Assembly: GCA_965205615.1 (NCBI GenBank) | Contig: CBDBHK010000033.1 | Coordinates: 102,822 to 166,821 of the forward strand | Direction of reading: 5' to 3' | DNA: 64,000 bases | DNA from: Acidobacteriota bacterium | GTDB lineage: Bacteria; Acidobacteriota; UBA6911; RPQK01; CBDAPI01 | Shown here: piece after piece, positions 40,517-55,818 of the stretch | How the letters are laid out: every line of letters begins with the position of its first letter | How positions within the stretch are numbered: position 1 is the first letter of the stretch | Notes under the pieces: generated by a model | The model's database searches: none | What the model was told of the DNA's origin: nothing | Seen by the model: only the letters and a program-made list of their open reading frames with translations | Made by a program: the position numbers and the translations under genes

Positions 40517-41056
40517 ATGACCCTTCTTACCGCACAGGTCGCCTTCTACTACATGGCGGCCGCCAGCGTCACCAGCGCGATCCTGGCCGTGACGCGGAGG
40601 AGTCCCGTCCACAGCATGCTCTGGGTGCTGGCCCTCTTTCTGCACGTGGCGGGAATCTTTCTGCTGCTGGGCGCGGAGTTCCTGGCGGCCGTCCAGGTCA
40701 TCGTGTATGCCGGAGCCATCCTGGTCTTTTATCTCTTTGTCCTGATGTTGCTCGACTTACCGGGCGAGGAGGCCCGGCCCCGCTTTGGCGCCCACTGGCC
40801 TCTGGCGGCTGCCGTGGGCCTGGGATTCGGGCTGCTGGCCTGGCTGGCCCTGGTCGGGACTTTCGACCCGGTAGGAGCCGGGATTGCAGAGGCTGCTCCG
40901 TCAGGCCAGGGAGAAGGTCCGCCACTGGGAAGTCTTGCGCAGGTGGGCAGGGCACTTTTCGGTCCGTTCGCACTGCCCTTTGAAATGGCCTCTCTGATCC
41001 TTCTGGCCGCCATCGTGAGCGCGGTCGTGCTGGCCAGAAGGAGGGCAGAACGATGA
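40517..41056 (+). CDS. nuoJ: NADH-quinone oxidoreductase subunit J
   Basis: 179 aa, five TM segments, NuoJ/ND6-like. First gene of the membrane-arm block. Confidence 0.75.
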   Translation: MTLLTAQVAFYYMAAASVTSAILAVTRRSPVHSMLWVLALFLHVAGIFLLLGAEFLAAVQVIVYAGAILVFYLFVLMLLDLPGEEARPRFGAHWPLAAAVGLGFGLLAWLALVGTFDPVGAGIAEAAPSGQGEGPPLGSLAQVGRALFGPFALPFEMASLILLAAIVSAVVLARRRAER

Positions 41057-41358
41057 TCGTCCCGGTGGGCGTGGTTCTGGCCCTGAGTGCGGTCCTCTTC
41101 GGGATCGGAGTATTCGGCTTTCTGGCCCGCCGCAACCTGATCCTGATGCTGGTTTCGATCGAGGTCATGCTCAATGCCGTCAACCTCAGCCTGGCCGGAT
41201 TCAGCCGTCACTTCAATGATCCAACCGGGCAGGTCCTGGCCCTTTTCGTGATCGCGGTGGCGGCGGCGGAAGCCGGGGTGGGTCTGGGGCTCGTGATCGC
41301 TCTGAACCGGAACAAGCCGGGGGCCAGTGTGACGGACCTGACCGATCTCAAATGGTGA
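41053..41358 (+). CDS. nuoK: NADH-quinone oxidoreductase subunit K
   Basis: 101 aa, three TM helices with conserved Glu residues (SIEVMLNAVNL, AAAEAGVGLGL). Confidence 0.8.
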   Translation: MIVPVGVVLALSAVLFGIGVFGFLARRNLILMLVSIEVMLNAVNLSLAGFSRHFNDPTGQVLALFVIAVAAAEAGVGLGLVIALNRNKPGASVTDLTDLKW

Positions 41359-41377
41359 GGGCAGTGGAGGCGGCACA

Positions 41378-42838
41378 TTGAGTTCGATCACACCGCTTCT
41401 GGCCGTGCTGGTTTCTGCCCTGGGTGCACTCCTGATTGCCTTCACGGGCCGGCGTCGCGCCAATCTGAGAGAGTTCTGGTCGGTTGCCGCCGGTGTGGCG
41501 ATGTTCGCCCTGGTCGCCAGCATGATCCCGGAGGTTCTGGCCGGCGGCACGCCGGAATGCAAGCTCTTCAGCCTTCTTCCCGGCATTGAGCTCGCTTTTC
41601 GAGTGGATGCCTTCGGTCTCCTCTTTGCCCTGGGGGCCTCGCTCCTGTGGATCCTGACCTCGTTCTATTCGATTGGTTACATGCGTTCCCTCAAAGAGCA
41701 CGCGCAAACCCGCTATTTTGCCTGTTTCGCCCTGGCCCTCTCTGCCACCCTGGGGGTGGCCTTCTCGGCCAACCTGTTCACCCTGTTTCTGTTTTACGAG
41801 GGCCTGACCCTGGTCACCTACCCCCTGGTGGGTCACAAGGAGACCGCCGAAGCCAGGGCCGGCGCCCGCAAGTACGTCATCTATCTTCTGGGCGCCGCCA
41901 AGGTGCTTCTCATCGCTGCCATCATCCTGATCTACAACGTGGCCGGAACCCTGGAGTTCCGCCTGGGCGGGATCCTGCCGTTTGAGGAGGTGACCGCGCA
42001 GCCCCGGCTTCTCTATCTCATTTTCGCGCTGTTCCTGTTCGGATTTGCCAAAAACGCGCTTGTCCCCCTGCACGGGTGGCTGCCGGCGGCTATGGTGGCT
42101 CCCACCCCCGTGAGCGCTTTGCTGCACGCCGTGGCCGTGGTTAAAACCGGCGTGTTTTCCACGCTTCGGGTCTTTCTGTTTATTTTCGGCGCCGACGCCA
42201 TGCGCGAGATCGGCGCCGACCACCTGGCGCTGGGAGCCGCCTCGATAACCATCCTGGTCGGTTCGCTGCTCGCCCTGGGACAGGATAATCTCAAGGCCCG
42301 GCTGGCCTTTTCGACGGTGAGCCAGCTCTCCTACATCATCCTGGGAGCGGCGCTCCTGAACCAGAGCGGGATCCTGGGCGGGGTCTCCCACATCACGAAC
42401 CACGCCGTATCAAAGATCACGCTTTTTCTGTGCGCCGGCTCCATTTACGTGTCCACGCACAAGACCAAGATCAGCCAGATGTCCGGACTGGCCAGGCGTA
42501 TGCCCTGGACCATGGCGGCGTTTGCGGTGGCTTCGCTGAGCATAGTGGGCATTCCCGGTACCTCCGGGTTCGTCTCCAAGTGGTACCTGGCCCTGGGCTC
42601 GCTGGAGCTGCACAGCCTGGCCCTCCTGGGCGTACTTCTGATCAGCTCGCTTCTGAACGCAGCCTACCTTGGCCCGGTCGTGTACAAAGCCTATTTTGAA
42701 GAGGCGCCCCCCACTCACGAGGAGGTCCGCGAGGTTCCCTGGATGGTTGCGCCCCTGGCCATCAGCGCGGCAGCCAGCCTGCTCCTGGGCCTGTACCCGG
42801 CCCCGGTGCTGGAACTGGCCGGAAGGGCCGTACCGTGA
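41378..42838 (+). CDS. Additional NuoL/MrpA-like antiporter-type subunit (486 aa, no long C-terminal helix), extra to the canonical L, M, N set
   Basis: 14-TM antiporter core. FLFYEG (TM5 Glu). FAKNALVPLHGWLPAAMVAPTPVSALLHAVAVVKTG resembles NuoL/MrpA ([26 protein letters not shown]), but the LPDA aspartate is Ala. Lies between nuoK and the 589-aa nuoL. Confidence 0.7.
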   Translation: MSSITPLLAVLVSALGALLIAFTGRRRANLREFWSVAAGVAMFALVASMIPEVLAGGTPECKLFSLLPGIELAFRVDAFGLLFALGASLLWILTSFYSIGYMRSLKEHAQTRYFACFALALSATLGVAFSANLFTLFLFYEGLTLVTYPLVGHKETAEARAGARKYVIYLLGAAKVLLIAAIILIYNVAGTLEFRLGGILPFEEVTAQPRLLYLIFALFLFGFAKNALVPLHGWLPAAMVAPTPVSALLHAVAVVKTGVFSTLRVFLFIFGADAMREIGADHLALGAASITILVGSLLALGQDNLKARLAFSTVSQLSYIILGAALLNQSGILGGVSHITNHAVSKITLFLCAGSIYVSTHKTKISQMSGLARRMPWTMAAFAVASLSIVGIPGTSGFVSKWYLALGSLELHSLALLGVLLISSLLNAAYLGPVVYKAYFEEAPPTHEEVREVPWMVAPLAISAAASLLLGLYPAPVLELAGRAVP

Positions 42839-43098
42839 ACTTCCTGGAGAGGCAGCTCGAAAACCCGGTCCGTCTGGCCCGTATCAAGCGCTGGTTCTAC
42901 CTGGGCCTGGTCGTCGTCGCTGTGGGGGAAATCGTTCTGCCCAGGGTACTTCACGGTTCCCACCCCCATTTCTGGTTCGAGGGCTTTCCCGCCTGGGGAT
43001 CTCTCTACGGATTGGCTTCCTGCGTGGCGATCATCGTCGTGTCCAAGCTGATCGGGAAAGTGTGGCTGATGCGCCGGGAAGACTATTATGACTCTTGA
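42835..43098 (+). CDS. Small 2-TM membrane protein encoded between the extra antiporter subunit and nuoL
   Basis: 87 aa. GTG start overlaps the stop of the upstream gene (GTGA). Its stop overlaps the nuoL ATG (ATGA). Two hydrophobic helices (WFYLGLVVVAVGEIVLP; LYGLASCVAIIVVSKLIG). High third-position GC consistent with coding. Confidence 0.55.
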   Translation: MNFLERQLENPVRLARIKRWFYLGLVVVAVGEIVLPRVLHGSHPHFWFEGFPAWGSLYGLASCVAIIVVSKLIGKVWLMRREDYYDS

Positions 43099-44857
43099 GT
43101 GGGTGCATCCTGGACTAGTGCTGATCCTGGGAGCCTGGGTCCTGCCCTTCCTCAAAGGCCGGGCCAGGAGCCTGGCCATGCTCCTGCTTCCTGCGGCGGC
43201 ACTCGGCATCTGCCTGCGCATGACGCCGGGTATCTACGGCGCAGTGAGTTTCCTCGGACAAGACCTGGTGTTTGGCCGGGTGGACCAGTTGAGCCTGGTC
43301 TTTTCCTACGTTTTCTCGATCATGGCGTTCCTGGGGATGGTCTACGCGCTGCATGTCCAGGATAATGCCCAGCACGTGGCGGCCCTGACCTATGGGGGGG
43401 GCGCGCTGGGGGTCACGTTTGCCGGGGACTTCCTCTCCCTGCTCGTGTTCTGGGAACTCATGGCCCTCTCCTCGGCACTTCTGGTCTGGCAGCGCCGCCA
43501 GACGGCCGCCCTGGCAGCCGGTTTCCGTTATCTGCTGGTCCACGTCGTGGGCGGGCTCCTTCTCCTGGCGGGGATCGTGCTCCACTGGTCTCAGACCGGG
43601 TCGATTGCCTTCGAGGACATGGGCACTCTTGCGGGCGGCATGGCCTGGACCCTCATCCTCGTCGCCTTTCTCATCAACGCGGCCGTCCCACCTCTGGGCG
43701 CCTGGCTTCCGGACGCCTACCCCGAGGCCACGGTTACGGGCGCGGTTTTCATGACCGCCTTTACCACCAAGTCGGCGGTCTACGTCTTGATCCGCGGATT
43801 TCCCGGGACGGAGCTCCTGGTGTGGCTGGGAGCCATCATGGCCGTCTACGGCGTCGTCTACGCCGTGCTGGAAAACGACGCGCGGCGGCTCCTGGCCTAC
43901 CACATCGTCAGCCAGGTCGGTTACATGGTGTGCGGGGTGGGAATCGGGACCTCTCTGGCTCTAAACGGCGCCACGGCCCACGCTTTCGCACACATCCTCT
44001 ACAAGGGGCTTCTTTTCATGGGTGCCGGCGCTGTCCTGGAGGTGACCCGACTGCGAAAGCTGAGCGACATGGGAGGGCTCTACAAGACCATGCCGATCAC
44101 CCTTGGTCTTTACATGGTCGGCGCCTTCGCCATTTCGGCCGTGCCGCTCTTCAGCGGCTTCGTGAGTAAGTCGATGGTCGTGTCAGCCGCCGGCGAGGCT
44201 CACCTCGGACTGATCTTTCTCATGCTCACTCTCGCCTCTGCCGGGACGTTCCTGCACACGGGTCTCAAGCTTCCCTACTACATGTTCTTCGCCAAGGATT
44301 CAGGCCGGCGAGCCCAGGAACCTCCCCGCAATATGCTCCTGGCCATGGGCCTGGCTGCGACAGCGTGCATTGTGATCGGAGTGTTCCCGGGCCTCCTCTA
44401 CCGGCATCTGCCCAACCCGGTGGACTATGCCCCCTATACCCTGCAGCACGTCACCAGCACCCTGGGGATGCTGGGCTTTACGGCGCTGGGCTTCTTCCTG
44501 CTGCTCAAGCATCTCGACCCGGAGCCCAAGATCAGCCTCGACACGGACTGGTTTTATCGCCGGGGTGCGGCGGTCTTCATGATGGTCGTACAGAGGCCAC
44601 TGGCGCATCTGGATTCAGAGTTCGTGGGAGAGATCTATGAGTTTGTCATCCGCAAACCGGTGCTGGGCGTGGCCCGCCTCCTGCGGCAGGTCGACGCCCG
44701 GGTGGTCGATTCAGCGGCGCTGGGCGTGGGCCGTTTGACGCTGGCCTGGAGCCAGGCGTTGAAGACCACTGTCAGCGGCAACGCCCAGCATTACGGGCTG
44801 ATCATGGCGGCCGCAGTCCTGGCACTGCTCGCTCTGGCGCTAATGGCATCACCATGA
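43088..44857 (+). CDS. nuoL: NADH-quinone oxidoreductase subunit L (589 aa, with C-terminal long helix + final TM)
   Basis: FWELMAL TM5 motif, WLPDAYPEA broken-helix motif. C-terminal ~65-residue amphipathic segment followed by a last TM (YGLIMAAAVLALLALALMA) consistent with the NuoL horizontal helix. Confidence 0.7.
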   Translation: MTLEWVHPGLVLILGAWVLPFLKGRARSLAMLLLPAAALGICLRMTPGIYGAVSFLGQDLVFGRVDQLSLVFSYVFSIMAFLGMVYALHVQDNAQHVAALTYGGGALGVTFAGDFLSLLVFWELMALSSALLVWQRRQTAALAAGFRYLLVHVVGGLLLLAGIVLHWSQTGSIAFEDMGTLAGGMAWTLILVAFLINAAVPPLGAWLPDAYPEATVTGAVFMTAFTTKSAVYVLIRGFPGTELLVWLGAIMAVYGVVYAVLENDARRLLAYHIVSQVGYMVCGVGIGTSLALNGATAHAFAHILYKGLLFMGAGAVLEVTRLRKLSDMGGLYKTMPITLGLYMVGAFAISAVPLFSGFVSKSMVVSAAGEAHLGLIFLMLTLASAGTFLHTGLKLPYYMFFAKDSGRRAQEPPRNMLLAMGLAATACIVIGVFPGLLYRHLPNPVDYAPYTLQHVTSTLGMLGFTALGFFLLLKHLDPEPKISLDTDWFYRRGAAVFMMVVQRPLAHLDSEFVGEIYEFVIRKPVLGVARLLRQVDARVVDSAALGVGRLTLAWSQALKTTVSGNAQHYGLIMAAAVLALLALALMASP

Positions 44858-46317
44858 CAGACTACCCGGTCCTGACCGTTACAACCTTTCTGCCCCTGGC
44901 GGGCGCGGTAGCCATCTTGTTTCTGGGCGGCGCGCGGCAGGCACGCTGGATCGCCCTGGCCACAACCCTTGCCACCCTGGCGGTCTCAGCCCCTCTCTAC
45001 AGAGGATTCGACAAGTCGTCGAGCGCACTGCAGTTCGTCGAGTCCTCAGACTGGATCCCGGGGTGGAATATCTCCTACGAGATGGGCGTGGACGGAATCA
45101 GTCTTCCCTTTATTTTCCTTGCGGCTGTCTTGAGTGTCCTCTGCGTGGGCGGTTCGTGGACTGCGGTGGACTCGAGAGTGAAAGAATTCTACGCTGCGCT
45201 GCTGGTTGCCGAAACCGCCATGATCGGGCTCTTCGCCGCCACCAATTTATTTATCTTCTATATTTTCTGGGAGCTGATGATCGTTCCTCTTTTCCTGCTC
45301 ATCGGAGTCTGGGGAGGCCCGGGGCGAGTCTACGCGGCGGTCAAGTTTCTGCTCTTCACCCTGGCCGGAAGCGTTTTGATGCTGGTGGGCATGGTTGCCC
45401 TCTACCACGCCTGCGGCACGCTGAACTTCAAGGAGCTGGCGGCCACCACCCTTCAGCCCGCCTTTCAGGCCGGGCTCTTCGCGGCCTTTCTGGCGGCGTT
45501 TGCGGTGAAGGTTCCCATGTTCCCGGTGCACACCTGGCTCCCGGATGCTCACACGGAGGCCCCGACCGCCGGGAGCGTGATCCTGGCCGGGATCCTCCTC
45601 AAAATGGGCGCCTACGGGTTCCTGCGGGTTTCGCTTCCCATCCTTCCCGACGCCGTACAGCTTTTTCTGACGCCCATGCTGGTGATCTCGGCAGTGGCTA
45701 TCGTGTATGGCGCCTACGTGACTCTGGTCCAGACAGACGTCAAACGCCTCATCGCTTTTTCGAGCGTGAGCCACATGGGCTTCGTCACCCTGGGAATCTT
45801 CACTCTCAACCACAACGGGGTGGAAGGGGCCATCCTGCAGATGATCAACCACGGGATCATCTCCGCGGCGCTGTTCCTGTGCGTGGGCATGATCTACGAG
45901 CGAACCCACTCGCGGGAAATCAAGGACTACGGGGGGGTCGCCAGGATCGCGCCGGTCTACTCGTCCCTGCTGGCGTTCTTTTGCCTGGCCGCCGCGGGTT
46001 TCCCCGGTTTGAACTCCTTCGTGGGAGAGTTCCTGATTATCAGCGGGGCCTTCCAGACCAGGCCCTGGCTCGGCGCCATGGCTGTCTGGGGAGTAGCCCT
46101 GGGGACAGCTTACCTGGTCTGGCTCTACTACCGGGTGGCCATGGGCCGGACGAACTCCGGGCTGGAGGGACTCAAGCTCGAGCTCAATGCCCGCGAGGTG
46201 GCGACTCTGGCCCCTCTGGCGTTGCTGGCACTCTGTCTGGGGCTCTACCCTGAGCTCGTCCTTTCCTATCTTCGTGCTCCCGTGGCCGAACTCCTGGCTG
46301 GAGGAGTAACGCCATGA
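44854..46317 (+). CDS. nuoM: NADH-quinone oxidoreductase subunit M
   Basis: 487 aa. FYIFWELMIVPLFLLIG and HTWLPDAHTEAPTAGSVILAGILLKMGAYG are NuoM hallmarks. Confidence 0.85.
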   Translation: MTDYPVLTVTTFLPLAGAVAILFLGGARQARWIALATTLATLAVSAPLYRGFDKSSSALQFVESSDWIPGWNISYEMGVDGISLPFIFLAAVLSVLCVGGSWTAVDSRVKEFYAALLVAETAMIGLFAATNLFIFYIFWELMIVPLFLLIGVWGGPGRVYAAVKFLLFTLAGSVLMLVGMVALYHACGTLNFKELAATTLQPAFQAGLFAAFLAAFAVKVPMFPVHTWLPDAHTEAPTAGSVILAGILLKMGAYGFLRVSLPILPDAVQLFLTPMLVISAVAIVYGAYVTLVQTDVKRLIAFSSVSHMGFVTLGIFTLNHNGVEGAILQMINHGIISAALFLCVGMIYERTHSREIKDYGGVARIAPVYSSLLAFFCLAAAGFPGLNSFVGEFLIISGAFQTRPWLGAMAVWGVALGTAYLVWLYYRVAMGRTNSGLEGLKLELNAREVATLAPLALLALCLGLYPELVLSYLRAPVAELLAGGVTP

Positions 46318-47735
46318 AGGGTGCGAGCCTGGCTGACCTGGCCTTACTCTGGCCGGAGCTGATTCTGTGCGCGGTGGCCCTGGCTCTGATCCTGGTGGCG
46401 CGCCGGATTCAGAAAGCGCCACCGGCCGCCGCCCTCACGGTTCTCGCAGCGCTGGCCGCCGGACTGGCCTCGGCCTGGGTCCTGGCCCCGGGTCCCCGGA
46501 CCGGGTTTGGCGGTATGATCACCGTGGACGGCTACTCTCAGTTCTTCAAGGTGTTGATCGCCGGGGCCCTGGCCCTGGCTGCGCTTCTGTCCGTGAAACG
46601 AGTCGACACCGATCATGTTCGGCCCGCCGAGTACCATGCCCTGCTCCTTCTGGCCTCGACGGGCATGATGTTGGCCGTCTCAGCCCTGGATCTCCTGACC
46701 CTCTACCTGGGCCTGGAACTCATGACGCTCTGCTCGTACAGCCTGGTCGGCGTCACGGTGGAAAAACAGAGATCGAACGAAGCTGCGATCAAGTATTTCC
46801 TGCTGGCCTCTTTCGCCTCGGCCCTTCTCCTCTACGGCATAGCTGTGGTCTATGGAGTAACGGGCTCTACGGGCTTTACGGCCATTGCCTCGACGCTGTC
46901 TGCGGGCAGTCCGGGGAGCTATCAAATCCTCCTGGCTGCGATCGGTCTGGTGGCCGCGGGACTCGCCTTTAAGATTGCGGCGGTTCCCTTTCATGCCTGG
47001 GCGCCCGACGCCTACCAGGGTGCCAGCGCGCCCGTTGCCGCCTTTCTGGCGGCCGCCTCCAAGGCCGCTGGTTTAGCCGCGCTGGGCCGCGTCTACCTGG
47101 TCGCCTTCGCCTCTCAAGCCCTTGTCCTGTCGGTGGTTCTAGCCGGGCTGGCAGCGCTCTCCATCGTCGTGGGGAGCATCATCGCCCTGGCCCAGACCGA
47201 CATGAAACGCCTGTTGGCGTATTCCTCGATTTCTCATGCGGGATACGCCCTTCTCGGCTTTATGTCCGGATCGGCCGAAGGGGCAGCGGCAACCATGACC
47301 TATGCCTTTCTCTATGTCTTCATGACGCTGGGAGCCTTCGGGATCGTTGTCGCACTGGGCCGGCGCGGCGAGAGTCTCGAAGGTTACCGCGGCCTGGCCG
47401 CGCAGCGACCCGCAACGGCCGCGCTGATGCTGCTTTTCCTCCTTTCCCTGACCGGCATCCCACCCACGGCCGGGTTCGCCGCCAAATTCGTCGTCATCCT
47501 CAGTGCTGTGCGCGCCGGCTATGTGGCGCTGGCAGTCCTGGCCGTGGCTTGTAGTGTGATCTCGGCCTTCGTCTACCTGCGGGTGGCCGTGTTCATGTAC
47601 ATGAGAAAACCCCGGGAGCCTGAGCCTTCCCGCTACCCGCTGGCCGTGTCGGCTGCGCTGGCGGTGGCTGCGCTGGTCACTGTAATCGGCGGAATCTTTC
47701 CGGGTAGTCTCAGCTTCTGGACGGTGGCGCCATGA
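46314..47735 (+). CDS. nuoN: NADH-quinone oxidoreductase subunit N
   Basis: 473 aa. HAWAPDAYQGASAPVAAFLAAASKAAG matches the NuoN TM7 motif. Confidence 0.85.
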   Translation: MKGASLADLALLWPELILCAVALALILVARRIQKAPPAAALTVLAALAAGLASAWVLAPGPRTGFGGMITVDGYSQFFKVLIAGALALAALLSVKRVDTDHVRPAEYHALLLLASTGMMLAVSALDLLTLYLGLELMTLCSYSLVGVTVEKQRSNEAAIKYFLLASFASALLLYGIAVVYGVTGSTGFTAIASTLSAGSPGSYQILLAAIGLVAAGLAFKIAAVPFHAWAPDAYQGASAPVAAFLAAASKAAGLAALGRVYLVAFASQALVLSVVLAGLAALSIVVGSIIALAQTDMKRLLAYSSISHAGYALLGFMSGSAEGAAATMTYAFLYVFMTLGAFGIVVALGRRGESLEGYRGLAAQRPATAALMLLFLLSLTGIPPTAGFAAKFVVILSAVRAGYVALAVLAVACSVISAFVYLRVAVFMYMRKPREPEPSRYPLAVSAALAVAALVTVIGGIFPGSLSFWTVAP

Positions 47736-49260: not shown

Positions 49261-49303
49261 TGAAAACCCCAACCTCCAATCGTCGCTCCCCGGCTCAAGC
49301 TCG

Positions 49304-50680
49304 ATGATGCCCGAATCAGCCCCTCCCAGGGAGACCTCCCAACACGAGGCCGCGGACCTCGAGACCCGGGACATGATGCTCAACATCGGCCCCGCCCACC
49401 CGGCCATGCACGGGATCGTCAGGATCGTGGCGGAACTCGACGGGGAGCAGATCCAGGAAGCTGAAGTGGAGATCGGCTATCTCCACCGCGGCTTTGAGAA
49501 GATGGCGGAAGTAGTGGACTACAACGGCGTCATCCCCTACACCGATCGCCTCAACTACGTCTCGCCGCTCATCAACAACATGGGCTACTGCATGACCGTC
49601 GAGAAACTGCTCGGGATATCGGTCCCGGAGCGCTGCCACTACGTCAGGGTCATCACTTCGGAGATCTCCCGCATCTCGGACCATCTCACTTGCGTGGGAG
49701 CGACGGCCATGGAGCTGGGCGCTTTCAGCGTTTTCCTCTACATGATCAAGGCCCGGGAGTATCTCTGGGAGCTGGTGGAGATGGTCACCGGGGCGCGCCT
49801 GACGGTCAGCTACTGTCGCGTCGGCGGCGTGAAGGCCGACCTTCCCGAGGACTTTGCCGAGGGTTGTCGCAAGGCCTTCGAGGAAACCCGCAAGGTCCTG
49901 GACGAGGCCTCCGGTCTGCTGACGCGCAACCGGATTTTCACCGACCGAATGAACGACACGGGAGTGATCTCGGCGGAAGACGCCATCTCCTACGGCATCA
50001 CCGGCCCCTTTCTGCGCGCCAGTGGCGCCGACTATGACGTTCGGAAGGACTGCCCCTACTCCGTCTACGACCGGATCCCTTTCGATGTGCCCGTCGGAAC
50101 CCGTGGCGACAACATGGATCGCTACCTGGTTCGCATGGAGGAGATGGAGCAGTCCATGCGCATCGTGGAGACGGCGCTGCGAGATCTGCCTTCCGGCCCG
50201 GTTCAGGTCCACCCGGAGACGGGTCGGCCGATTCCGGCCGCGGAGATGGTGGATCTTGCCAAGGTGGGTGACATCGCGGCCATTTCGGGCGGAAGCGCCA
50301 TCACCGGTCCAACCCTGGAGGGATCCGGCCGCGACCGGTATCCATCCATAGCCACGGACGAAAAACGCGCCTTCCTCCCTCCCAAAGAGGATACCTATGG
50401 CAACATCGAGGGACTCATGCACCACTTTAAGCTGGTCATGTACGGCCACGGTGTGCGGCCGCCCAGGGGAGAGGTGTACTTCCCCGTCGAGGGAGCTAAC
50501 GGAGAACTCGGGTTTTACGTGGTGAGCGATGGAGCGGGGACCGCCTACCGGGTTCGGGTTCGTCCCCCCTGCTTCGCCATTATGTCGGCCCTGCCCGAGC
50601 TTGTGGTGGGCGATATGATGGCCGACCTGGTCCCCACCTTCGGGTCCGTCAATATGATCGGAGGAGAGCTCGACCGATGA
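49304..50680 (+). CDS. nuoD: NADH-quinone oxidoreductase subunit D
   Basis: MMLNIGPAHPAMHGIVRIV...IGYLHRGFEK...RPPCFA is canonical NuoD/49-kDa. Alternative start at 49373 is likely. Contains a ~40-aa insertion relative to compact NuoD. Confidence 0.85.
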   Translation: MMPESAPPRETSQHEAADLETRDMMLNIGPAHPAMHGIVRIVAELDGEQIQEAEVEIGYLHRGFEKMAEVVDYNGVIPYTDRLNYVSPLINNMGYCMTVEKLLGISVPERCHYVRVITSEISRISDHLTCVGATAMELGAFSVFLYMIKAREYLWELVEMVTGARLTVSYCRVGGVKADLPEDFAEGCRKAFEETRKVLDEASGLLTRNRIFTDRMNDTGVISAEDAISYGITGPFLRASGADYDVRKDCPYSVYDRIPFDVPVGTRGDNMDRYLVRMEEMEQSMRIVETALRDLPSGPVQVHPETGRPIPAAEMVDLAKVGDIAAISGGSAITGPTLEGSGRDRYPSIATDEKRAFLPPKEDTYGNIEGLMHHFKLVMYGHGVRPPRGEVYFPVEGANGELGFYVVSDGAGTAYRVRVRPPCFAIMSALPELVVGDMMADLVPTFGSVNMIGGELDR

Positions 50681-52476
50681 AGCTTTCCGATCTTGAGCCC
50701 GGGGCCAGAGAGATCCTGCAACGCTACGAACGATCCAGGGCGGCTATGTTGCCGGTGTTGTGGCTCGTCCAGGAAAACCAGGGGTACGTCTCTCAGGAGG
50801 CGGAGGTCTGGGTGGCGAGCATCCTGAGTGTAGCCCGTGCCCAGGTACGCGAGGCGGTCTCCTTTTACAACATGTTCCACACACGGCCGGTGGGCCGTCG
50901 CGAGCTTCGAGTGTGCACCAGTCTGCCCTGTATGTTGCGGGGTGCCGGGGAGTTACTGGAGCAGATTCAGGAGCGCTGGAAGATTCGTCCGGGCCAGACC
51001 ACGGCAGGTGGGGAGGTCACGCTCACCGAGGTCGAGTGTCTCTGTGCCTGCGAGATGTCCCCTATGGCCCAGCTCGACGAAGCTTTTCTCGGGCCCCTGG
51101 AGAGAGGGACACTGGAAACCGTCCTGCGGGCCGGGCTCGAGGATCCCGAAGATTCGCGACCCCTTTCCGAGCCTGAGCCCTATATCTCCACAGACGGTCC
51201 GGTGCTTTCCACGCGCTTCGAGAACCCGGCCGGAATCTGGTTGCAAGACTACGTGACCGACAATGGGTATGAGGGCGCTGCCAGGGCTCTCACTTCCATG
51301 ACACCGGAGCAGGTGATCGAGGAGATATCCGGAGCCAACTTGCGGGGTCTCGGCGGCGCGGGGTTTCCAGCCGGCAGAAAATGGTCCTTCGTGCCCAGGG
51401 AATCGCAAAAGCCCAAGTTCCTGGTGGCGAACGCAGACGAAGGGGAACCGGGCACTTTCAAGGATCGCTACATCATGGAGCGCGACCCGCACGCACTCAT
51501 CGAAGGCATGATTATTGCCGCCTATGCCATCGGGAGTCACAAGGCCTACGTGTATATTCGGGGCGAGTACTTCCGGTCGGCCAGGCGTTTACAACGCGCC
51601 CTCGATGAAGCCTACAGCCAGGGCTGGCTGGGTAAGGATATCCAGGGGTCCGGTTTTGATCTGGATGTGGTCATTCACCGGGGCGCGGGGGCCTATATCT
51701 GCGGCGAAGAAACCGCGCTCCTGACTTCGCTCGAGGGCGGGAAGGGTTTCCCCAAGCTCAAGCCTCCGTTCCCCGCCATTTCGGGTCTCTTTCAATGCCC
51801 GACCATCGTCAACAACATTGAGACTCTCGCCTGTGTCCCATTCATTCTGAACCATGGAGCCGAGCGTTTTGCCGGCATTGGCACGGACCGGCAGGGCGGT
51901 ACGCGGCTCTTTTGCGTGAGCGGACATGTGGTCCGACCGGGGGTCTATGAGGAGCCGGTCGGCATCACCCTGAGAGAACTGATCGAGAAGGCGGGGGGTG
52001 TCCGGGACGGCAAGAGGCTCAAGGCCGTCATCCCCGGAGGCATTTCGGCCAAAATTCTGACCGCCGATGAGATTGACGTGGCCATGGACTTTGACTCCCT
52101 GATGGCGGCCGGCAGCATGGCCGGATCGGGGGGAGTGATCGTGATGGACGAGAGCACCTGCATGGTCGAGGCACTCGACTCCGCGGCCCGGTTTTTCGCC
52201 GACGAGTCGTGCGGACAATGCTCGCCCTGCCGTGAGGGTACGGGGTGGGTCCATCGGATTGTCCGCCGTATTGTGGAAGGCAGGGGGAACCTCCAGGATC
52301 TGGACCAGTTGCTCGCCATCGCCGGCGACATGGAAGGCAATACGATCTGCGTCTTCGCCGACGCAGCCGCCTGGCCTGTCCAGTCTTACATCGCGAAATT
52401 TCGGGACGAGTTCGAGGACTACATTCGGAGCGGCCGTGGAGCCGGGAAAAAGGAGGCCGATGCATGCCCAGCCTGA
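50677..52476 (+). CDS. nuoEF: Fused NuoE-NuoF (24-kDa 2Fe-2S subunit joined to 51-kDa FMN/NADH-binding subunit) in one 599-aa ORF
   Basis: Residues ~1-160 are NuoE (CTSLPC...VECLCACEMSP cysteine pairs). A ~90-aa linker follows. Then comes NuoF (GLGGAGFPAGRKW FMN/NADH motifs, ESCGQCSPCREG N3 cluster). No stop codon lies between them in this sequence. Confidence 0.75.
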   Translation: MKLSDLEPGAREILQRYERSRAAMLPVLWLVQENQGYVSQEAEVWVASILSVARAQVREAVSFYNMFHTRPVGRRELRVCTSLPCMLRGAGELLEQIQERWKIRPGQTTAGGEVTLTEVECLCACEMSPMAQLDEAFLGPLERGTLETVLRAGLEDPEDSRPLSEPEPYISTDGPVLSTRFENPAGIWLQDYVTDNGYEGAARALTSMTPEQVIEEISGANLRGLGGAGFPAGRKWSFVPRESQKPKFLVANADEGEPGTFKDRYIMERDPHALIEGMIIAAYAIGSHKAYVYIRGEYFRSARRLQRALDEAYSQGWLGKDIQGSGFDLDVVIHRGAGAYICGEETALLTSLEGGKGFPKLKPPFPAISGLFQCPTIVNNIETLACVPFILNHGAERFAGIGTDRQGGTRLFCVSGHVVRPGVYEEPVGITLRELIEKAGGVRDGKRLKAVIPGGISAKILTADEIDVAMDFDSLMAAGSMAGSGGVIVMDESTCMVEALDSAARFFADESCGQCSPCREGTGWVHRIVRRIVEGRGNLQDLDQLLAIAGDMEGNTICVFADAAAWPVQSYIAKFRDEFEDYIRSGRGAGKKEADACPA

Positions 52477-54101
52477 CCATCAACGGGCGTGAGACCACGG
52501 TTCCTGACGGAACCACGGTTATCCAGGCGGCCGAGAAGATGGGAATCTTCGTTCCCCGCTACTGCTATCATCCCGGGCTCTCTATCGCGGGCAACTGCCG
52601 CATCTGCCTCGTCGAAGTGGAAAAATTCCCCAAGCTCCAGATTGCCTGTAACCTGCCGGCCACGGAGGGGATGGTCGTGCACACCCTGAGCGACAAAGCC
52701 GAGGCCGGCCGCCGCGCCGTACTGGAGTTTCTGCTTGCCAACCACCCTCTGGACTGCCCGGTCTGCGACCAGTCCGGTGAGTGTGACCTGCAGAACTTCT
52801 ACATGAACTTCGGGCTCTACGACCCGCGCTTCAGGGAGCACAAAGTCAAGAAGCGAAAAGCCGTTGAAATAGGTCCGCATGTCATGCTGGATCAGGAACG
52901 CTGTATCCTCTGCTCCCGCTGTGTCCGCTTTACCGACGAGATCACGCGGACCGGGGAGTTCGGGATCTTTAACCGCGGAGACCGGGCTGAGCTGGGTCTG
53001 TGCCCCGACGAGGTGCTCGACAATCCCTACTCGGCCAACGTGGTGGACATCTGCCCGGTGGGGGCCCTGACCGAGGCTGATTTCCGTTTCAAGGCCAGGG
53101 TCTGGTACCTCTCCAGCGCTCCCACGGTATGCAACGGGTGCAGCCAGGGCTGTAACATGGATCTCCACTTTGTGCTCGACAGACCCCACCTGAACGACGG
53201 GGCACGGGTGGTGCGCATCAAGCCCCGTCCCAACCCGGATGTCAACCAGTGGTGGCTGTGCGATGAAGGGCGCTACGGCTTTGACTGGGTCGACCGGGAT
53301 CGCCTGGACAAGGTACGCGGCCCGTCGCCGGACGCGACCTGGGAGCGGGCCCTTACAGAGATCTCACTCGCCCTGGCCGGGTTGCGCCGGGAGGGAGCCG
53401 CAGCCCGGGAAGGGGCAGACTGTCGGATCGGCGTCATCGCTTCGGCCCAACTCACCACCGAGGAGCTCTTTTTGATCCGGGAAATCTTTCAGACCGCCCT
53501 GGGCGCCCGGGTGACGGCCCTGGTTCCTGAGGAACCGGGAACCAGCGATGACTTCCTGATCAAGGCGGATAAGAATCCGAATACCGCGGGTGCAACTCTG
53601 CTGGGCCTGGCCGGCCCGGACTCGCCGGAAGCCCGCCAGCTGGTGGACGAAGCGCTGGGCGGAACCCTCGACGTTCTGTGGGTCTTCGGGCACGATCTGG
53701 TGCGACCCTTCGGAGAAAAAACAGTCCGGCGACTGTCGGAGCAAGTGCCTCTCTTCGTGTTCTCGGGAACCAACAAAAATGCCACCGCGGCTCTGGCACA
53801 CTGGGTGCTTCCCACCGCAGCCTACATGGAGAAGGACGGGACCTTTGTGAACTGCCATGGCCGCGTCCAGCGCATCGGTTGCGCTTTTCCGCCTCTCGCG
53901 GACTCCCGGGAAGAGTGGCGCATTCTCCTGGAGGTGGCCACGAAGCTGGGTCTGTCTTTCGATTGGCGGAAACCGGAGGAGATCTTTGGGGGGATGAGCA
54001 GGACCTTGGCGCCTTTTCAGGGATTGAGTTATGCAAGGATCGGGGCCCAGGGGGTTGACCTGGGGACGGCCCAGCCCCCGGCCGGGAGGGCTGCACCATG
54101 A
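52464..54101 (+). CDS. nuoG: NADH-quinone oxidoreductase subunit G (short, 545-aa form)
   Basis: Starts at ATG 52464 (MPSLTINGRETTVPDG), overlapping the nuoEF end. 2Fe-2S CRICLVEV, HPLDCPVCDQSGEC, CILCSRCVRF, CPVGAL cluster motifs. Confidence 0.85.
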   Translation: MPSLTINGRETTVPDGTTVIQAAEKMGIFVPRYCYHPGLSIAGNCRICLVEVEKFPKLQIACNLPATEGMVVHTLSDKAEAGRRAVLEFLLANHPLDCPVCDQSGECDLQNFYMNFGLYDPRFREHKVKKRKAVEIGPHVMLDQERCILCSRCVRFTDEITRTGEFGIFNRGDRAELGLCPDEVLDNPYSANVVDICPVGALTEADFRFKARVWYLSSAPTVCNGCSQGCNMDLHFVLDRPHLNDGARVVRIKPRPNPDVNQWWLCDEGRYGFDWVDRDRLDKVRGPSPDATWERALTEISLALAGLRREGAAAREGADCRIGVIASAQLTTEELFLIREIFQTALGARVTALVPEEPGTSDDFLIKADKNPNTAGATLLGLAGPDSPEARQLVDEALGGTLDVLWVFGHDLVRPFGEKTVRRLSEQVPLFVFSGTNKNATAALAHWVLPTAAYMEKDGTFVNCHGRVQRIGCAFPPLADSREEWRILLEVATKLGLSFDWRKPEEIFGGMSRTLAPFQGLSYARIGAQGVDLGTAQPPAGRAAP

Positions 54102-55192
54102 TGGAAGTTCTGATCATCAAGGTGGCGCTGGCCGGCGTCGTTTTTTTCGGGATCTTGAACTTCGCAGGGTTTCACACCTGGGTGGAGCGCAAACAGTCGG
54201 CCCTGATCCAGGACCGGATCGGTGCCAATCGGGCCTCGATCTTCGGATTCCGGGCGCTGGGACTTTTCCACGGCCTGGCCGATGTGCTCAAGATGTTCAC
54301 CAAAGAGGACATCGTCCCCACAGGGGCCGACAGGACGCTCCACACCCTGGCCCCGCTGTTCTCGGTGTTTTTTGCTCTGGTGGCCTTTGCCGCGATCCCT
54401 TTTGGAGACCGCCTCATCCTGGGCGACGGTCTGGTTATCGACCTGCAGGTGGCCAAGATCGACGCGGCTCTGCTCTATGTCTTCGCCATGCTCTCGCTCG
54501 GGGTCTACGGCGTGATTCTGGCCGGCTTCGCCTCGGGCAGCAACTACGCCATCATCGGGGGGCTGAGAGCCATGGCGCAGATGATCTCCTACGAGATCGC
54601 CCTGGGCATTGCCGTTGTCGGAGTGATCATGGTCTATGGGACCATGGATCTGGGTGAACTGGTGCGGGGCCAGGGGTACCTGATCGGCGGGTGGATCCCC
54701 TTCTGGGGCTTTCTCGCCCAGCCGGTCGCCTTCTTCATCTTCGTGACGGCGGCCCTGGCTGAAACCAAGCGACTTCCCTTCGACCTGCCGGAAGGCGAGT
54801 CGGAGATTATCGGATACTTTGTGGAGTACAGCGGCATGAAGTTCGGGATGTTTTTCCTCACGGATTTCCTGGAAACCATCATGGTCGCCTGTCTGGCCAC
54901 AACGCTTTTCTTCGGCGGCTGGCAGGTGCCTTTTCTGATGCCGGACGGTTTCCACTTCCCCTGGGGGGCACAGCTGCCGGTTCCCCATTTGATGTATGTG
55001 CTTCTCGGGGTGGCCAGCTTTTCAACCAAGGTCGTGATTTTCTGCTGGTTCTTCATGCAACTGCGCTGGACCCTGCCGCGCTTCCGCTACGACCAGCTCA
55101 TGAGTCTGGGCTGGAAGGGGCTCTTTCCCATCGCAGTGGCGAACGTGGTGGTGACAGCCGTAGTGCTGGTCTTTTTCGGGGAGGCGTCGTGA
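54098..55192 (+). CDS. nuoH: NADH-quinone oxidoreductase subunit H
   Basis: 364 aa. NuoH/ND1 motifs (SGSNYAIIGGLRAMAQMISYEI, EAKRLPFDLPEGESE). Confidence 0.9.
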   Translation: MMEVLIIKVALAGVVFFGILNFAGFHTWVERKQSALIQDRIGANRASIFGFRALGLFHGLADVLKMFTKEDIVPTGADRTLHTLAPLFSVFFALVAFAAIPFGDRLILGDGLVIDLQVAKIDAALLYVFAMLSLGVYGVILAGFASGSNYAIIGGLRAMAQMISYEIALGIAVVGVIMVYGTMDLGELVRGQGYLIGGWIPFWGFLAQPVAFFIFVTAALAETKRLPFDLPEGESEIIGYFVEYSGMKFGMFFLTDFLETIMVACLATTLFFGGWQVPFLMPDGFHFPWGAQLPVPHLMYVLLGVASFSTKVVIFCWFFMQLRWTLPRFRYDQLMSLGWKGLFPIAVANVVVTAVVLVFFGEAS

Positions 55193-55818
55193 TGGCCGTA
55201 AAAGTAGTCAGCAGACCCGAATTGACTTTCTGGGAAAAGCTCTACGTTCCGCAGATCCTGTGCGGCCTCAAAATCACCTCGGCCCATTTCTTCCGAAATC
55301 TTTTTCTTCACATCCTCCACCTCATCGGTCGCTTCAAGCATCTGCCCGCCTCGGTGACGATTCAATACCCCGATGAGCTGAGGCCGCTCATGTCGCGCTT
55401 CCGCAGTCGCCACCGGCTCACTCTGCGCGAGGATGACACCCCGCGCTGTGTGGGGTGCATGCTTTGCGAGACCGTCTGCCCGGCCAAATGCATCACGATC
55501 GTGCCCGGCGAGCACCCCGATCCCCACATCGAGAAGTATCCAATCCGCTTCGACATCGACCTGGGGATTTGCGTTTACTGCGGGTACTGCGTCGAGGCCT
55601 GCCCGGAGGACGCCATCCGAATGGACACAGGTATCCTCGACATCGCGGCCTACTCCAGGGAAGCAATGCAACTGGACATCCATGAGCTCATGGACCCGAA
55701 GTTACGGAAGCCGATCAAGGACTGCAGCCTGGAGTTCCCCCACCAGTGCGAGCTGCACGGTGGAGACATGAAGGGCAGCTGGGAAGCGGTGGATGGCTCG
55801 GTGGGACAAAAAGCCTAG
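55189..55818 (+). CDS. nuoI: NADH-quinone oxidoreductase subunit I (with ~50-aa C-terminal extension)
   Basis: Two 4Fe-4S ferredoxin motifs (CVGCMLCETVCP, CVYCGYCVEACP). 209 aa, longer than typical NuoI. Confidence 0.85.
   Translation: MMAVKVVSRPELTFWEKLYVPQILCGLKITSAHFFRNLFLHILHLIGRFKHLPASVTIQYPDELRPLMSRFRSRHRLTLREDDTPRCVGCMLCETVCPAKCITIVPGEHPDPHIEKYPIRFDIDLGICVYCGYCVEACPEDAIRMDTGILDIAAYSREAMQLDIHELMDPKLRKPIKDCSLEFPHQCELHGGDMKGSWEAVDGSVGQKA

What the first reader, a model, noticed from the sequence alone, without database searches (positions are those of the whole stretch)
40517..55818. Complex I cluster carries an extra NuoL/MrpA-like antiporter subunit plus a translationally coupled 87-aa 2-TM protein between nuoK and nuoL
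Canonical complex I has three antiporter-like subunits (L, M, N). Here four full 14-TM antiporter-type genes occur in a row (486, 589, 487 and 473 aa). The first (41378-42838) has the NuoL/MrpA-type PTPVSALLHA motif but lacks the NuoL C-terminal horizontal helix, and its LPDA aspartate is Ala (GWLPAAM). It is stitched to nuoL by a small membrane protein (42835-43098) whose start and stop overlap the neighbouring genes (GTGA / ATGA). That arrangement suggests a dedicated assembly or coupling factor. It could add a fourth proton-pumping (or a non-pumping, scaffold) module. It does not match the second-nuoM (2M) arrangement I recall from the literature. This is the feature in the window most likely to be a genuinely under-described system.
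Basis: partly seen in the sequence, partly recalled or inferred. Interest (0 to 1): 0.75.

Follow-up and report, generated by a model that had tools for sequence, protein, structure and literature searches.

The report
Green-type complex I with four antiporter subunits
This Acidobacteriota gene cluster encodes the already described but barely studied "green" variant of respiratory complex I, in which the usual NuoL subunit is replaced by a conserved three-gene cassette: two antiporter-like proteins and an uncatalogued 87-residue membrane protein.

Summary
Window 40517-55818 holds a complete nuo cluster in the order J-K-X(486 aa)-s(87 aa)-Y(589 aa)-M-N-A-B-C-D-EF-G-H-I, with four Proton_antipo_M genes in a row.

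The 589-aa gene is not a canonical nuoL. It meets NCBIfam NF009310, "Na+/H+ antiporter subunit D", and fails the NuoL model, although it carries a NuoL-like TM15-lateral helix-TM16 tail.

The same gene order, including the small overlapping ORF, is on Sinorhizobium meliloti pSymA. [quoted passage not shown] The block recurs in all 73 species-level genomes retrieved, mostly Acidobacteriota.

What I add:
- X-s-Y is a portable cassette. It also occurs in canonical-order Nuo14 clusters, in Nuo11-type clusters and in Mrp-type antiporter operons.
- The small protein belongs to a large family (over 6000 clusters) with a C-terminal EDYYD motif. It has no Pfam, NCBIfam or PDB relative and is under purifying selection.
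- X keeps all the pump residues, whereas Y has Asn in place of the TM7 lysine.

Verdict: a new member of a known, under-studied kind. Pump stoichiometry and the order of the subunits in the membrane arm remain unresolved.

The parts
39862..40311 (+). CBS-pair protein gene directly upstream. It is a possible accessory or regulatory partner and is not proven to be part of the complex.
   Evidence: Pfam CBS, E 8.5e-27. A CBS gene lies next to the cluster in roughly half of the 73 related loci, and beside nuoI on S. meliloti pSymA.
40517..41056 (+). nuoJ
   Evidence: Pfam Oxidored_q3, E 1.3e-38.
41053..41358 (+). nuoK
   Evidence: Pfam Oxidored_q2, E 1.1e-27. NF004320 scores 105 bits against a cutoff of 57.
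41378..42838 (+). X, 486 aa: a 14-TM antiporter-like subunit with a NuoL/MrpA-type core and no TM15-HL-TM16 tail.
   Evidence: Proton_antipo_M, E 1.3e-55. NF006236 scores 652 bits against a cutoff of 663. NuoL, NuoM and MrpA models score only about 200 bits. It keeps E141, K225, H250, K256, H338/H342/K346 and K401, and has Ala237 in WLPAA. It is 57% identical to the S. meliloti pSymA homologue.
42835..43098 (+). s, 87 aa: a small membrane protein predicted to be N-in/C-in. It has an N-terminal amphipathic helix, two TM helices and a C-terminal LMRREDYYD motif.
   Evidence: No Pfam, NCBIfam or PDB match. It has more than 1120 close homologues, 566 representatives at 50% identity and 6026 clusters with a profile. 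AF2 gives pLDDT 78, with helices 2-9, 11-38 and 54-78. Median pN/pS is 0.23. It overlaps X by 4 nt and Y by 11 nt.
43088..44857 (+). Y, 589 aa: an antiporter-like subunit with a NuoL-like C-terminal TM15, lateral helix and TM16. It takes the structural role of NuoL.
   Evidence: NF009310 scores 750 bits against a cutoff of 564. TIGR01974 scores 149 bits but aligns through to the model end. Residues 516-534 align to NuoL 545-563, including the conserved K-P. The AF2 secondary structure shows TM15 452-476, HL 487-558 and TM16 566-587, but confidence is low (pLDDT 53). It keeps E123, K228, H298/H302/K306 and K361, and has N197 in place of the TM7 Lys. It is 60% identical to the pSymA homologue.
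44854..46317 (+). nuoM (canonical)
   Evidence: TIGR01972 scores 583.6 bits against a cutoff of 263.8. It clusters with E. coli NuoM at 100% bootstrap.
46314..47735 (+). nuoN (canonical)
   Evidence: TIGR01770 scores 405.9 bits against a cutoff of 332.6. It clusters with E. coli NuoN at 100% bootstrap.
47794..48177 (+). nuoA. The longest ORF is given; gene callers on identical contigs start it at 47824, giving 117 aa.
   Evidence: Pfam Oxidored_q4, E 2.3e-35; called genes.
48158..48682 (+). nuoB. The longest ORF is given; the start called elsewhere is 48179, giving 167 aa.
   Evidence: Pfam Oxidored_q6, E 2e-27.
48679..49260 (+). nuoC
   Evidence: Pfam Complex1_30kDa, E 1.1e-43.
49304..50680 (+). 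nuoD, 458 aa. It is longer than the rhizobial homologue (404 aa).
   Evidence: Pfam Complex1_49kDa, E 1.6e-100.
50677..52476 (+). nuoE-nuoF fusion, 599 aa.
   Evidence: Pfam 2Fe-2S_thioredx, Complex1_51K, SLBB and NADH_4Fe-4S in a single ORF.
52464..54101 (+). nuoG, 545 aa, taking the ATG at 52464.
   Evidence: Pfam Fer2_4, NADH-G_4Fe-4S_3, Fer4_Nqo3 and Molybdopterin. The start agrees with the gene called on identical contigs.
54098..55192 (+). nuoH
   Evidence: Pfam NADHdh, E 9e-102.
55189..55818 (+). nuoI
   Evidence: The translation has two 4Fe-4S Cys motifs and its position follows nuoH. It was not scanned separately.

Best explanation
The cluster encodes a complete NADH:quinone oxidoreductase of the 'green complex I' type.

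Shown:
- All 14 Nuo functions are present, with E and F fused.
- Canonical NuoL is absent. In its place is a three-gene, translationally coupled cassette:
  - X is a NuoL/MrpA-like pump core without a lateral helix.
  - s is an 87-aa two-TM protein.
  - Y is a NuoL/MrpA-lineage subunit that carries the TM15-lateral helix-TM16 clamp.
- The cassette is inherited as a unit. It also occurs in Mrp-type antiporter operons, which suggests it is a module of Mrp ancestry.

Inferred:
- The membrane arm has four antiporter-like subunits (N, M, X, Y), clamped by the lateral helix of Y.
- X has every canonical charged residue and is an active proton path.
- s is a stoichiometric structural subunit. It sits at or near the X/Y pair with both termini in the cytoplasm. 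Its amphipathic N-terminal helix and acidic EDYYD tail lie on the same face as the lateral helix.
- The enzyme therefore has up to one more ion path than canonical complex I, that is, up to 5 H+ per 2 e-. This would lower the driving force needed per proton and favour reversibility.
- Whether Y itself pumps is doubtful, because its TM7 lysine is replaced by an invariant Asn.
- I lean to Y being the distal-most subunit (order N-M-X-Y), at about 60:40.
For: Identity and gene order:
- Pfam and NCBIfam assignments for all genes.
- Identical order, including an overlapping 84-aa hypothetical ORF, on S. meliloti pSymA.

Conservation:
- The J-K-X-s-Y-M-N-A-B-C-D-EF-G block is present in all 73 GTDB-species loci, from Acidobacteriota, Planctomycetota, Longimicrobiales and Dissulfurispiraceae.

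Cassette portability:
- X-s-Y occurs in Nuo11-type clusters.
- It occurs in a canonical-order Nuo14 cluster.
- It occurs in mrpEFG-B-C-D-X-s-Y operons.

Residues:
- X retains the TM5 Glu, TM7 Lys, TM8 His and Lys, TM11 H-H-K and TM12 Lys.
- Y retains all of these except the TM7 Lys, which is Asn.

Lateral helix:
- The tail of Y is homologous to the NuoL lateral helix, and AF2 predicts a helix of about 72 residues.

Small protein s:
- Purifying selection.
- AF2 hairpin model at pLDDT 78.
- K/R-rich termini and a K/R-free loop, seen directly in the sequence.

Subunit order:
- The best PDB sequence matches of X are MbhH and MbsH, which are proximal subunits.
- The best matches of Y are NdhF and MbsH', which are distal and bear the lateral helix.
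- In solved relatives the lateral helix belongs to the distal subunit and spans all the antiporter-like subunits (PMC8165549).
- The TM15-TM16 gap is 49 aa in a canonical MrpA, which spans 2 subunits, and 80 aa in E. coli NuoL, which spans 3. It is 77 and 102 aa in the two Mrp-type Y proteins, whose operons have 3 antiporter-like genes, and 92-97 aa in complex-I-type Y.
Against: - There is no experimental or structural evidence that X, s and Y assemble with the Nuo core.
- The lateral-helix gap of Y is only 12-17 aa longer than that of NuoL. This is less than the roughly 26 aa per extra subunit reported for 2M complexes. The alternative order N-M-Y-X, with X outside the clamp, is therefore not excluded.
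- Gap lengths differ by 25 aa between two Mrp-type operons of the same architecture, which weakens arguments based on length.
- The AF2 model of Y is of low confidence (pLDDT 53).
- Asn at the TM7 Lys position falls on a residue whose mutation in NuoL (K229A) is reported to impair complex I severely (PMC4938563). Four active pumps are therefore not assured.
- If the organism uses menaquinone, 5 H+ per 2 e- would be thermodynamically tight in the forward direction. This is my inference from standard potentials; the quinone type is unknown.
Confidence: 0.8

Rival explanations
1. NuoL's function is split rather than extended. X supplies the distal proton pump. Y has lost the TM7 lysine and is mainly a scaffold that provides the lateral helix and TM16 anchor. 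The stoichiometry stays at about 4 H+ per 2 e-.
For: - Y has an invariant Asn197 at the position of NuoL K229, in 36 of 36 close homologues, in about 61 of 73 loci by motif, and in S. meliloti, L077, L079, L080 and L082.
- NuoL K229A is listed among the mutations that severely affect complex I.
- X has the full residue set and MrpA/NuoL-type helix VIII but no lateral helix.
Against: - Y still keeps the TM5 Glu, TM8 Lys, TM11 H-H-K and TM12 Lys under strong conservation. That would be unexpected for a pure scaffold.
- MbsH in the solved MBS complex has Glu at the equivalent TM7 position and is still regarded as a proton path (PMC8165549).
- One Mrp-type Y (L078) keeps the Lys.
Confidence: 0.3
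2. The X-s-Y cassette acts as a cation/proton (Na+ or K+) antiport or cation-pumping module appended to complex I. It would couple redox energy or the proton gradient to cation export, reflecting its Mrp ancestry.
For: - The same cassette sits in operons with MrpE, F, G, B, C and D.
- NCBIfam names both proteins cation/H+ antiporter subunit D.
Against: - In solved Mrp and MBS structures the Na+ path is assigned to the small-subunit module (MrpE/F/G/B/C equivalents). The antiporter-like subunits are assigned proton paths (PMC7419157; PMC8165549).
- None of those small Mrp subunits is present in the window cluster.
Confidence: 0.1
3. The 87-aa protein is a dedicated assembly or insertion factor for X and Y, not a permanent subunit.
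For: - It is tightly translationally coupled to both neighbours.
- It has no homologue in any solved complex I, Mrp, MBH or MBS structure.
Against: - It keeps an obligatory position between X and Y in every architecture examined, across phyla.
- Its sequence conservation (median 74%) is similar to that of NuoJ and NuoN. Both points fit a stoichiometric subunit at least as well.
Confidence: 0.2
4. X is a decaying nuoL paralogue, or the block is a 2M-type complex I.
For: None beyond the presence of a fourth Proton_antipo_M gene.
Against: - X is intact and is 65-92% identical across 72 loci, with all catalytic residues invariant.
- X scores 204 bits on the NuoM model TIGR01972, below its cutoff of 263.8. 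Only one gene meets the NuoM model.
- X forms its own clade, separate from NuoM.
Confidence: 0.01

Closest known systems
[quoted passage not shown]
   Same: Gene order is J-K-X-s-Y-M-N-A-B-C-D-E-F(-G), with a CBS gene adjacent. X is 57% identical, s 44% and Y 60%. The Asp-to-Ala change in X and the Lys-to-Asn change in Y are the same.
   Different: In the window E and F are fused, H and I follow G on the same strand (on pSymA they are inverted), and NuoD is about 50 aa longer. The host is an Acidobacteriota MAG lineage, not a nodulating alphaproteobacterium.
2M complex I (Nitrospira, Chloroflexi and others; Chadwick et al. 2018, ISME J 12:2668; the paper was not readable here and is known through citing papers)
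   Same: It has four antiporter-like subunits and a predicted extra proton path.
   Different: 2M keeps a canonical NuoL with a 26-aa insertion in the lateral helix and adds a second NuoM. The window has a single NuoM, no canonical NuoL, and a small extra protein.
Complex_I_3 of Ca. Manganitrophaceae (PMC9040806)
   Same: It uses the two MrpD-like subunits of the green type in place of NuoL.
   Different: It also has two NuoM subunits (five pumps in all) and a 26-aa insertion in the lateral helix of MrpD2. The window has neither.
Irregular (group-3-like) Mrp antiporter operons, mrpEFG-B-C-D-X-s-Y (L078 Psychrobium sp., L080 Marinimicrobia)
   Same: They contain the same X-s-Y cassette. X is 46-55% identical and Y 51-62% identical to the window proteins, and the small ORF lies between them.
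   Different: They have no Nuo redox module, and they carry MrpE, F, G, B, C and an MrpD. In L078, Y keeps the TM7 Lys.
MbsH/MbsH' pair of the Pyrococcus MBS complex (PDB 6u8y), and MbhH of MBH (6cfw)
   Same: These are among the best solved-structure sequence matches. X matches MbhH and MbsH, and Y matches MbsH', which carries TM15-HL-TM16.
   Different: Scores are only about 130 bits. No subunit resembling s is found in these structures by sequence profile.
Canonical NuoL / MrpA
   Same: Both X and Y have the NuoL-type TM11 H-x3-H-x3-K signature. X has the MrpA/NuoL helix VIII motif PTPVSAxxHA. Y has the tail bearing the lateral helix. Y groups with NuoL and MrpA-N at 100% bootstrap in a small NJ tree.
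   Different: Neither reaches the NuoL model cutoff (195 and 149 bits against 407.5). The features of NuoL are divided between two polypeptides. NuoL D400 is absent from both.

Membership tests
Green complex I | Canonical NuoL is replaced by two 'MrpD-like' antiporter subunits | tested here: met
   No ORF meets TIGR01974 or NF005141. X and Y best match NF006236 and NF009310. The definition is taken from PMC9040806.
Green complex I | Rearranged operon order, JK..MN before ABCDEFG | tested here: met
   The order is identical to pSymA. A 'peculiar rearrangement of gene order' is described in PMC7415380.
Green complex I | Orthology of X and Y to the rhizobial proteins | tested here: met
   57% and 60% identity over the full length. 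They fall in the same clades in the tree.
Green complex I | Physiological role (up-regulation in symbiosis or at low oxygen; proposed reverse operation) | not testable with these tools
   No expression or biochemical data are available for this organism.
2M complex I | A second nuoM between nuoL and nuoM | tested here: not met
   Only 44854-46317 meets TIGR01972. X scores 204 bits, below the cutoff of 263.8. X lies outside the NuoM clade.
2M complex I | An insertion of about 26 aa in the NuoL lateral helix | tested here: not met
   There is no canonical NuoL. The TM15-TM16 gap of Y is 96 aa against 80 aa in E. coli NuoL, a difference of 16 aa.
Canonical 14-subunit Nuo (NDH-1) | All of NuoA-N, including a NuoL that meets the family model | tested here: not met
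   Thirteen subunit functions are present. The NuoL models are not met.
Mrp antiporter operon | Presence of the MrpE, MrpF, MrpG and MrpB small subunits | tested here: not met
   No MNHE, MrpF_PhaF, PhaG_MnhG or MnhB domain is found in the cluster ORFs scanned. These subunits are present in L078 and L080, where the same cassette occurs.
NCBIfam NF009310 (PRK12668.1, Na+/H+ antiporter subunit D) | Whole-protein score at or above the curated cutoff | tested here: met
   Y scores 750.5 bits against a cutoff of 564, aligned 2-581 to model positions 3-581 of 584.
NCBIfam NF006236 (PRK08375.1-1, putative cation/H+ antiporter subunit D) | Whole-protein score at or above the curated cutoff | tested here: not met
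   X scores 652.1 bits against a cutoff of 663, a narrow miss. It is still by far the best model for X.
Antiporter-like subunit as an active proton path | TM5 Glu, TM7 Lys, central TM8 Lys/His and TM12 Lys/Glu | tested here: inconclusive
   X has all of them. Y lacks the TM7 Lys and has N197 instead. Function was not tested.

The most novel reading that the evidence does not exclude
X-s-Y is a previously unrecognised, portable membrane module. It is shared by Mrp-type antiporters and by at least three architectures of complex I.

In this reading, the EDYYD small-protein family (no Pfam, NCBIfam or PDB relative) is an obligatory third subunit. NuoL's two jobs are divided: X is the pump, and Y, which has lost the TM7 lysine, is chiefly the lateral-helix clamp.

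If so, 'green' complex I would not simply be a five-proton machine, and the small protein would be a new core component of this enzyme superfamily.
Probability: 0.3. Interest if true: 0.6.

Novelty: new member of a known kind. Interest (0 to 1): 0.4.

Why it matters
Complex I variants with extra pumping subunits bear on how many protons the enzyme can move per electron pair. They also bear on how easily it can run in reverse.

The green type has been discussed almost only for rhizobia. Here it appears as the conserved form in many Acidobacteriota, Planctomycetota and other soil and marine lineages.

The cassette view gives concrete, testable targets for structural and mutational work in a tractable host, S. 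meliloti pSymA:
- X-s-Y is shared with Mrp operons.
- The third, small subunit is uncatalogued.
- Y has invariably lost the lysine that is critical in NuoL.

Tried and rejected
- **Chadwick 2018 and Degli Esposti 2016.** Neither paper is held in the library. I relied on citing papers. My recollection that Chadwick also treats Mrp-derived replacements of NuoL could not be checked and is not used.
- **AF2 of Y.** The alignment was shallow (81-89% identity) and gave pLDDT 53. I used only the secondary structure and ran no fold search on it.
- **Structure and profile searches for s.** Foldseek of the s model against PDB found nothing. PDB profile and phmmer searches also found nothing.
- **Metagenome locus scan.** I replaced it with a profile protein search and contig look-ups.
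- **A false landmark.** I first used the DTDWFY motif as the equivalent of NuoL FDWLYDK, which suggested a lateral helix 30 aa longer. BLASTP showed that the true equivalent is IYEFVIRKP, matching LYDKVFVKP. I dropped that inference.
- **Lateral-helix length as a ruler for subunit order.** The result is suggestive but ambiguous.
- **s as a split-off TM15/TM16 of X, like MbhI.** Rejected. The K/R distribution predicts N-in/C-in, which is the opposite of TM15/TM16, and the loop between the helices is only about 15 aa.
- **s compensating for the missing lysine in Y.** Rejected. K71 of s is equally conserved where Y keeps its Lys (L078).
Full report
**1. What is there**

On the + strand, 40517-55818 carries fifteen tightly packed or overlapping genes. 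Pfam and NCBIfam identify them as follows:
- nuoJ and nuoK;
- a 486-aa antiporter-like protein (X);
- an 87-aa ORF (s);
- a 589-aa antiporter-like protein (Y);
- nuoM, nuoN, nuoA, nuoB, nuoC and nuoD;
- a fused nuoE-nuoF;
- nuoG, nuoH and nuoI.

NuoM and NuoN pass their NCBIfam subfamily cutoffs comfortably.

Neither X nor Y reaches a NuoL model. On TIGR01974 they score 195 and 149 bits against a cutoff of 407.5. Y instead meets NF009310, 'Na+/H+ antiporter subunit D' (750 bits, cutoff 564). X just misses NF006236, 'putative cation/H+ antiporter subunit D' (652 bits, cutoff 663).

- X has the PTPVSALLHA and GWLPAAM motifs, and no C-terminal extension.
- The X/s junction is a GTGA overlap.

The s/Y junction, however, is an 11-nt overlap rather than ATGA.

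**2. The small ORF is a real gene**

- It has more than 1120 homologues at E ≤ 1e-3. The top 120 are 68-100% identical.
- It is found in 72 of 73 related loci, with a median identity of 74%. That is comparable to NuoJ and NuoN.
- Its median pN/pS is 0.23 at near-saturated synonymous divergence.
- AF2 with a diverse alignment gives a helical hairpin at pLDDT 78. It has a short N-terminal helix, a long helix at 11-38, a loop, and a second helix at 54-78.
- Lys and Arg are concentrated in the N-terminal segment and in the C-terminal tail, and are absent from the loop. From this I infer that both termini are cytoplasmic.
- The invariant positions are G59, C63, K71, D83 and Y85, within a C-terminal (K/R)xEDYYD motif.

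**3. It recurs, and it is already known**

A pattern scan of one genome per GTDB species returned 73 loci. All show J-K-X-s-Y-M-N-A-B-C-D-E/F-G. Most are Acidobacteriota: Vicinamibacteria, Bryobacterales/Terriglobia and Thermoanaerobaculia. A few are Planctomycetota, a Longimicrobiales MAG and a Dissulfurispiraceae MAG.

A tblastn search of Y against plasmids hit Sinorhizobium and Rhizobium megaplasmids at about 60% identity. The annotated S. meliloti pSymA region reads as follows:
- nuoJ and nuoK;
- 'monovalent cation/H+ antiporter subunit D family protein' (487 aa);
- 'hypothetical protein' (84 aa, overlapping both neighbours);
- 'Na(+)/H(+) antiporter subunit D' (586 aa);
- nuoM, N, A, B, C, D, E and F;
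- then a CBS-domain gene, nuoI and nuoH on the other strand.

[quoted passage not shown] Lindström and Mousavi note its 'peculiar rearrangement of gene order' (PMC7415380). The window cluster is therefore a member of a described kind, not the 2M type.

In the texts I could read, the small ORF is not mentioned. The original 2016 paper and Chadwick et al. 2018 were not available.

**4. X-s-Y is a portable cassette**

A profile of s finds 566 representatives at the 50% identity level. A profile of diverse members finds 6026 clusters at the 90% identity level. None has a Pfam, NCBIfam or PDB relative.

I looked up the contigs of six diverse members. In all five where the contig continued past s, it sits between an antiporter-like gene of about 490-504 aa and one of about 578-599 aa. 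On the sixth (L081) the contig ends inside the gene after s.
- In L077, L079 and L081 the surrounding cluster is nuoABCDHIJK-X-s-Y-MN, without nuoEFG.
- In L082 it is a canonical-order nuoC-D-E-F-G-H-I-J-K-X-s-Y-M-N.
- In L078 (Psychrobium sp.) and L080 (Marinimicrobia) it is an Mrp-type operon: MnhE-MrpF-MnhG-(MbhD/MbhE/MnhB)-MrpC-MrpD-X-s-Y.

The three genes therefore travel together between Mrp-like antiporters and several complex I architectures. The tight coupling is general: overlaps of 0-4 nt at X/s and 8-11 nt at s/Y.

**5. What X and Y are**

I aligned both to E. coli NuoL, NuoM and NuoN.

| Position (E. coli NuoL) | X | Y |
|---|---|---|
| TM5 Glu (E144) | E141 | E123 |
| TM7 Lys (K229) | K225 | N197 |
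| WLxDA Asp (D241) | A237 | D209 |
| Helix VIII His (H254) | H250 | T223 |
| Central TM8 Lys (as in NuoM/N) | K256 | K228 |
| TM11 H-x3-H-x3-K (H334/H338/K342) | H338/H342/K346 | H298/H302/K306 |
| TM12 Lys (K399) | K401 | K361 |
| D400 | W402 | S362 |

These states are essentially invariant across the 73 loci and in the rhizobial, Nuo11-type and L080 homologues. Only the Y of L078 keeps the Lys.

The C-terminal 150 residues of Y are homologous to the tail of NuoL:
- The NuoL models align through to their last positions.
- BLASTP pairs Y 516-534 (IYEFVIRKPVLGVARLLRQ) with NuoL 545-563 (LYDKVFVKPFLGIAWLLKR). This puts P524 of Y opposite P552 of NuoL.
- The low-confidence AF2 model shows TM15 at 452-476, a kinked helix at 487-558, and TM16 at 566-587.

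A small neighbour-joining tree gives these groupings:
- Y with E. coli NuoL and a Gemmobacter MrpA N-domain, at 100% bootstrap;
- X in a clade of its own;
- the window's M and N with canonical NuoM and NuoN.

Taxon sampling is thin, so the deeper branching is not reliable. By signature residues both X and Y belong to the NuoL/MrpA lineage, so 'MrpD-like' is a label of convenience.

**6. How it most likely works**

Shown: the cluster has every redox and membrane subunit of an NADH-linked complex I except NuoL, and it has X-s-Y in the NuoL slot.

Inferred:
- The membrane arm is N, M and then X and Y. The lateral helix of Y acts as the clamp, as in every solved relative. There, the helix belongs to the distal subunit and 'integrates all' the antiporter-like subunits (PMC8165549).
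- X has a complete set of proton-path residues and should pump.
- Y lacks the lysine whose mutation in NuoL is reported to impair the enzyme severely (PMC4938563). It keeps the rest of the charged axis, so its activity is uncertain.
- The maximum is five ion paths (four antiporter-like subunits plus the proximal channel), as others have proposed for green and 2M enzymes. A split-NuoL enzyme with four paths is a serious rival.
- From its topology and obligatory position, s is most simply a stoichiometric structural subunit of the X/Y pair. An assembly-factor role is not excluded.

**7. Order of X and Y**

Evidence for N-M-X-Y, with Y distal:
- Among solved structures, X best matches the proximal subunits MbhH and MbsH. 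Y best matches the helix-bearing distal subunits NdhF and MbsH'.
- The hydropathy-defined TM15-TM16 gap is 49 aa in a canonical MrpA (two subunits spanned) and 80 aa in E. coli NuoL (three spanned). It is 77 and 102 aa in the two Mrp-type Y proteins, whose operons encode three antiporter-like subunits.

Evidence against:
- The gaps in complex-I-type Y are 92-97 aa. That is only 12-17 aa more than NuoL, not the roughly 26 aa reported per extra subunit.
- The two Mrp-type values differ by 25 aa within a single architecture.

I lean 60:40 to Y being distal and treat the question as open.

**8. Verdict**

The arrangement is unusual, is not 2M, and has a dedicated small partner. But it is the known green complex I, and NuoL is replaced rather than supplemented.
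- Novelty: a new member of a known kind.
- The cassette's presence in Mrp operons, the uncatalogued small-protein family and the invariant Lys-to-Asn change in Y appear to be under-reported. They are worth experimental follow-up in S. meliloti.

Noticed in passing
window 39862-40311 (+); also L075 24000-24440 and many of L002-L074: A two-CBS-domain protein gene sits immediately next to the green complex I cluster in the window. The same is true in roughly half of the 73 related loci and on S. meliloti pSymA. It could be a nucleotide-sensing regulator or an accessory subunit.
   Followed up: partly
window 50677-52476 (+): NuoE and NuoF are fused into a single 599-aa protein in the window and in most Acidobacteriota loci (ORFs of 595-635 aa). 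They are separate genes in S. meliloti and in L082.
   Followed up: partly
window 49304-50680 (+): NuoD is 458 aa, against 404 aa in S. meliloti and 384-409 aa in other cassette-bearing clusters. The Pfam match spreads 321 residues over a 271-position model, which implies an insertion of about 50 aa plus an N-terminal extension.
   Followed up: no
window 52245-52476: The longest nuoG ORF (GTG at 52245) overlaps nuoEF by 232 nt. The start used by gene callers on identical contigs is the ATG at 52464, giving a 13-nt overlap and 545 aa, and the NuoG domains begin there.
   Followed up: yes
window 38133-39794 (+): The FG-GAP/ASPIC gene is 553 aa on near-identical contigs. In the window it has an in-frame stop at codon 68, inside a 'DNDG*SDIY' repeat where Trp is expected. 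This is a nonsense mutation or a sequencing error.
   Followed up: partly
window 55997-57259 (+); L001 3599-4822: A DDE_Tnp_1_4 transposase gene lies directly after nuoI, and its C-terminus looks truncated (profile positions 3-350 of 435). A sister contig from the same lineage has a different transposase (Transposase_mut) inserted in the upstream TPR gene. This points to insertion-sequence activity around the locus.
   Followed up: no
L079 15260-17932: In a Desulfoferrobacter-like Nuo11-type cluster with the X-s-Y cassette, nuoN is followed by a NuoG-like Fe-S protein and a molybdopterin oxidoreductase. This hints at a formate-type or other non-NADH electron input module.
   Followed up: no
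L078 14356-16723: The Psychrobium Mrp-type operon with the cassette lies about 2.4 kb upstream of a cytochrome bd oxidase pair. Ca. Manganitrophus is reported to have a bd-like terminal oxidase cluster with two MrpD-like subunits (PMC9040806). I did not test whether that cluster also uses X-s-Y.
   Followed up: no
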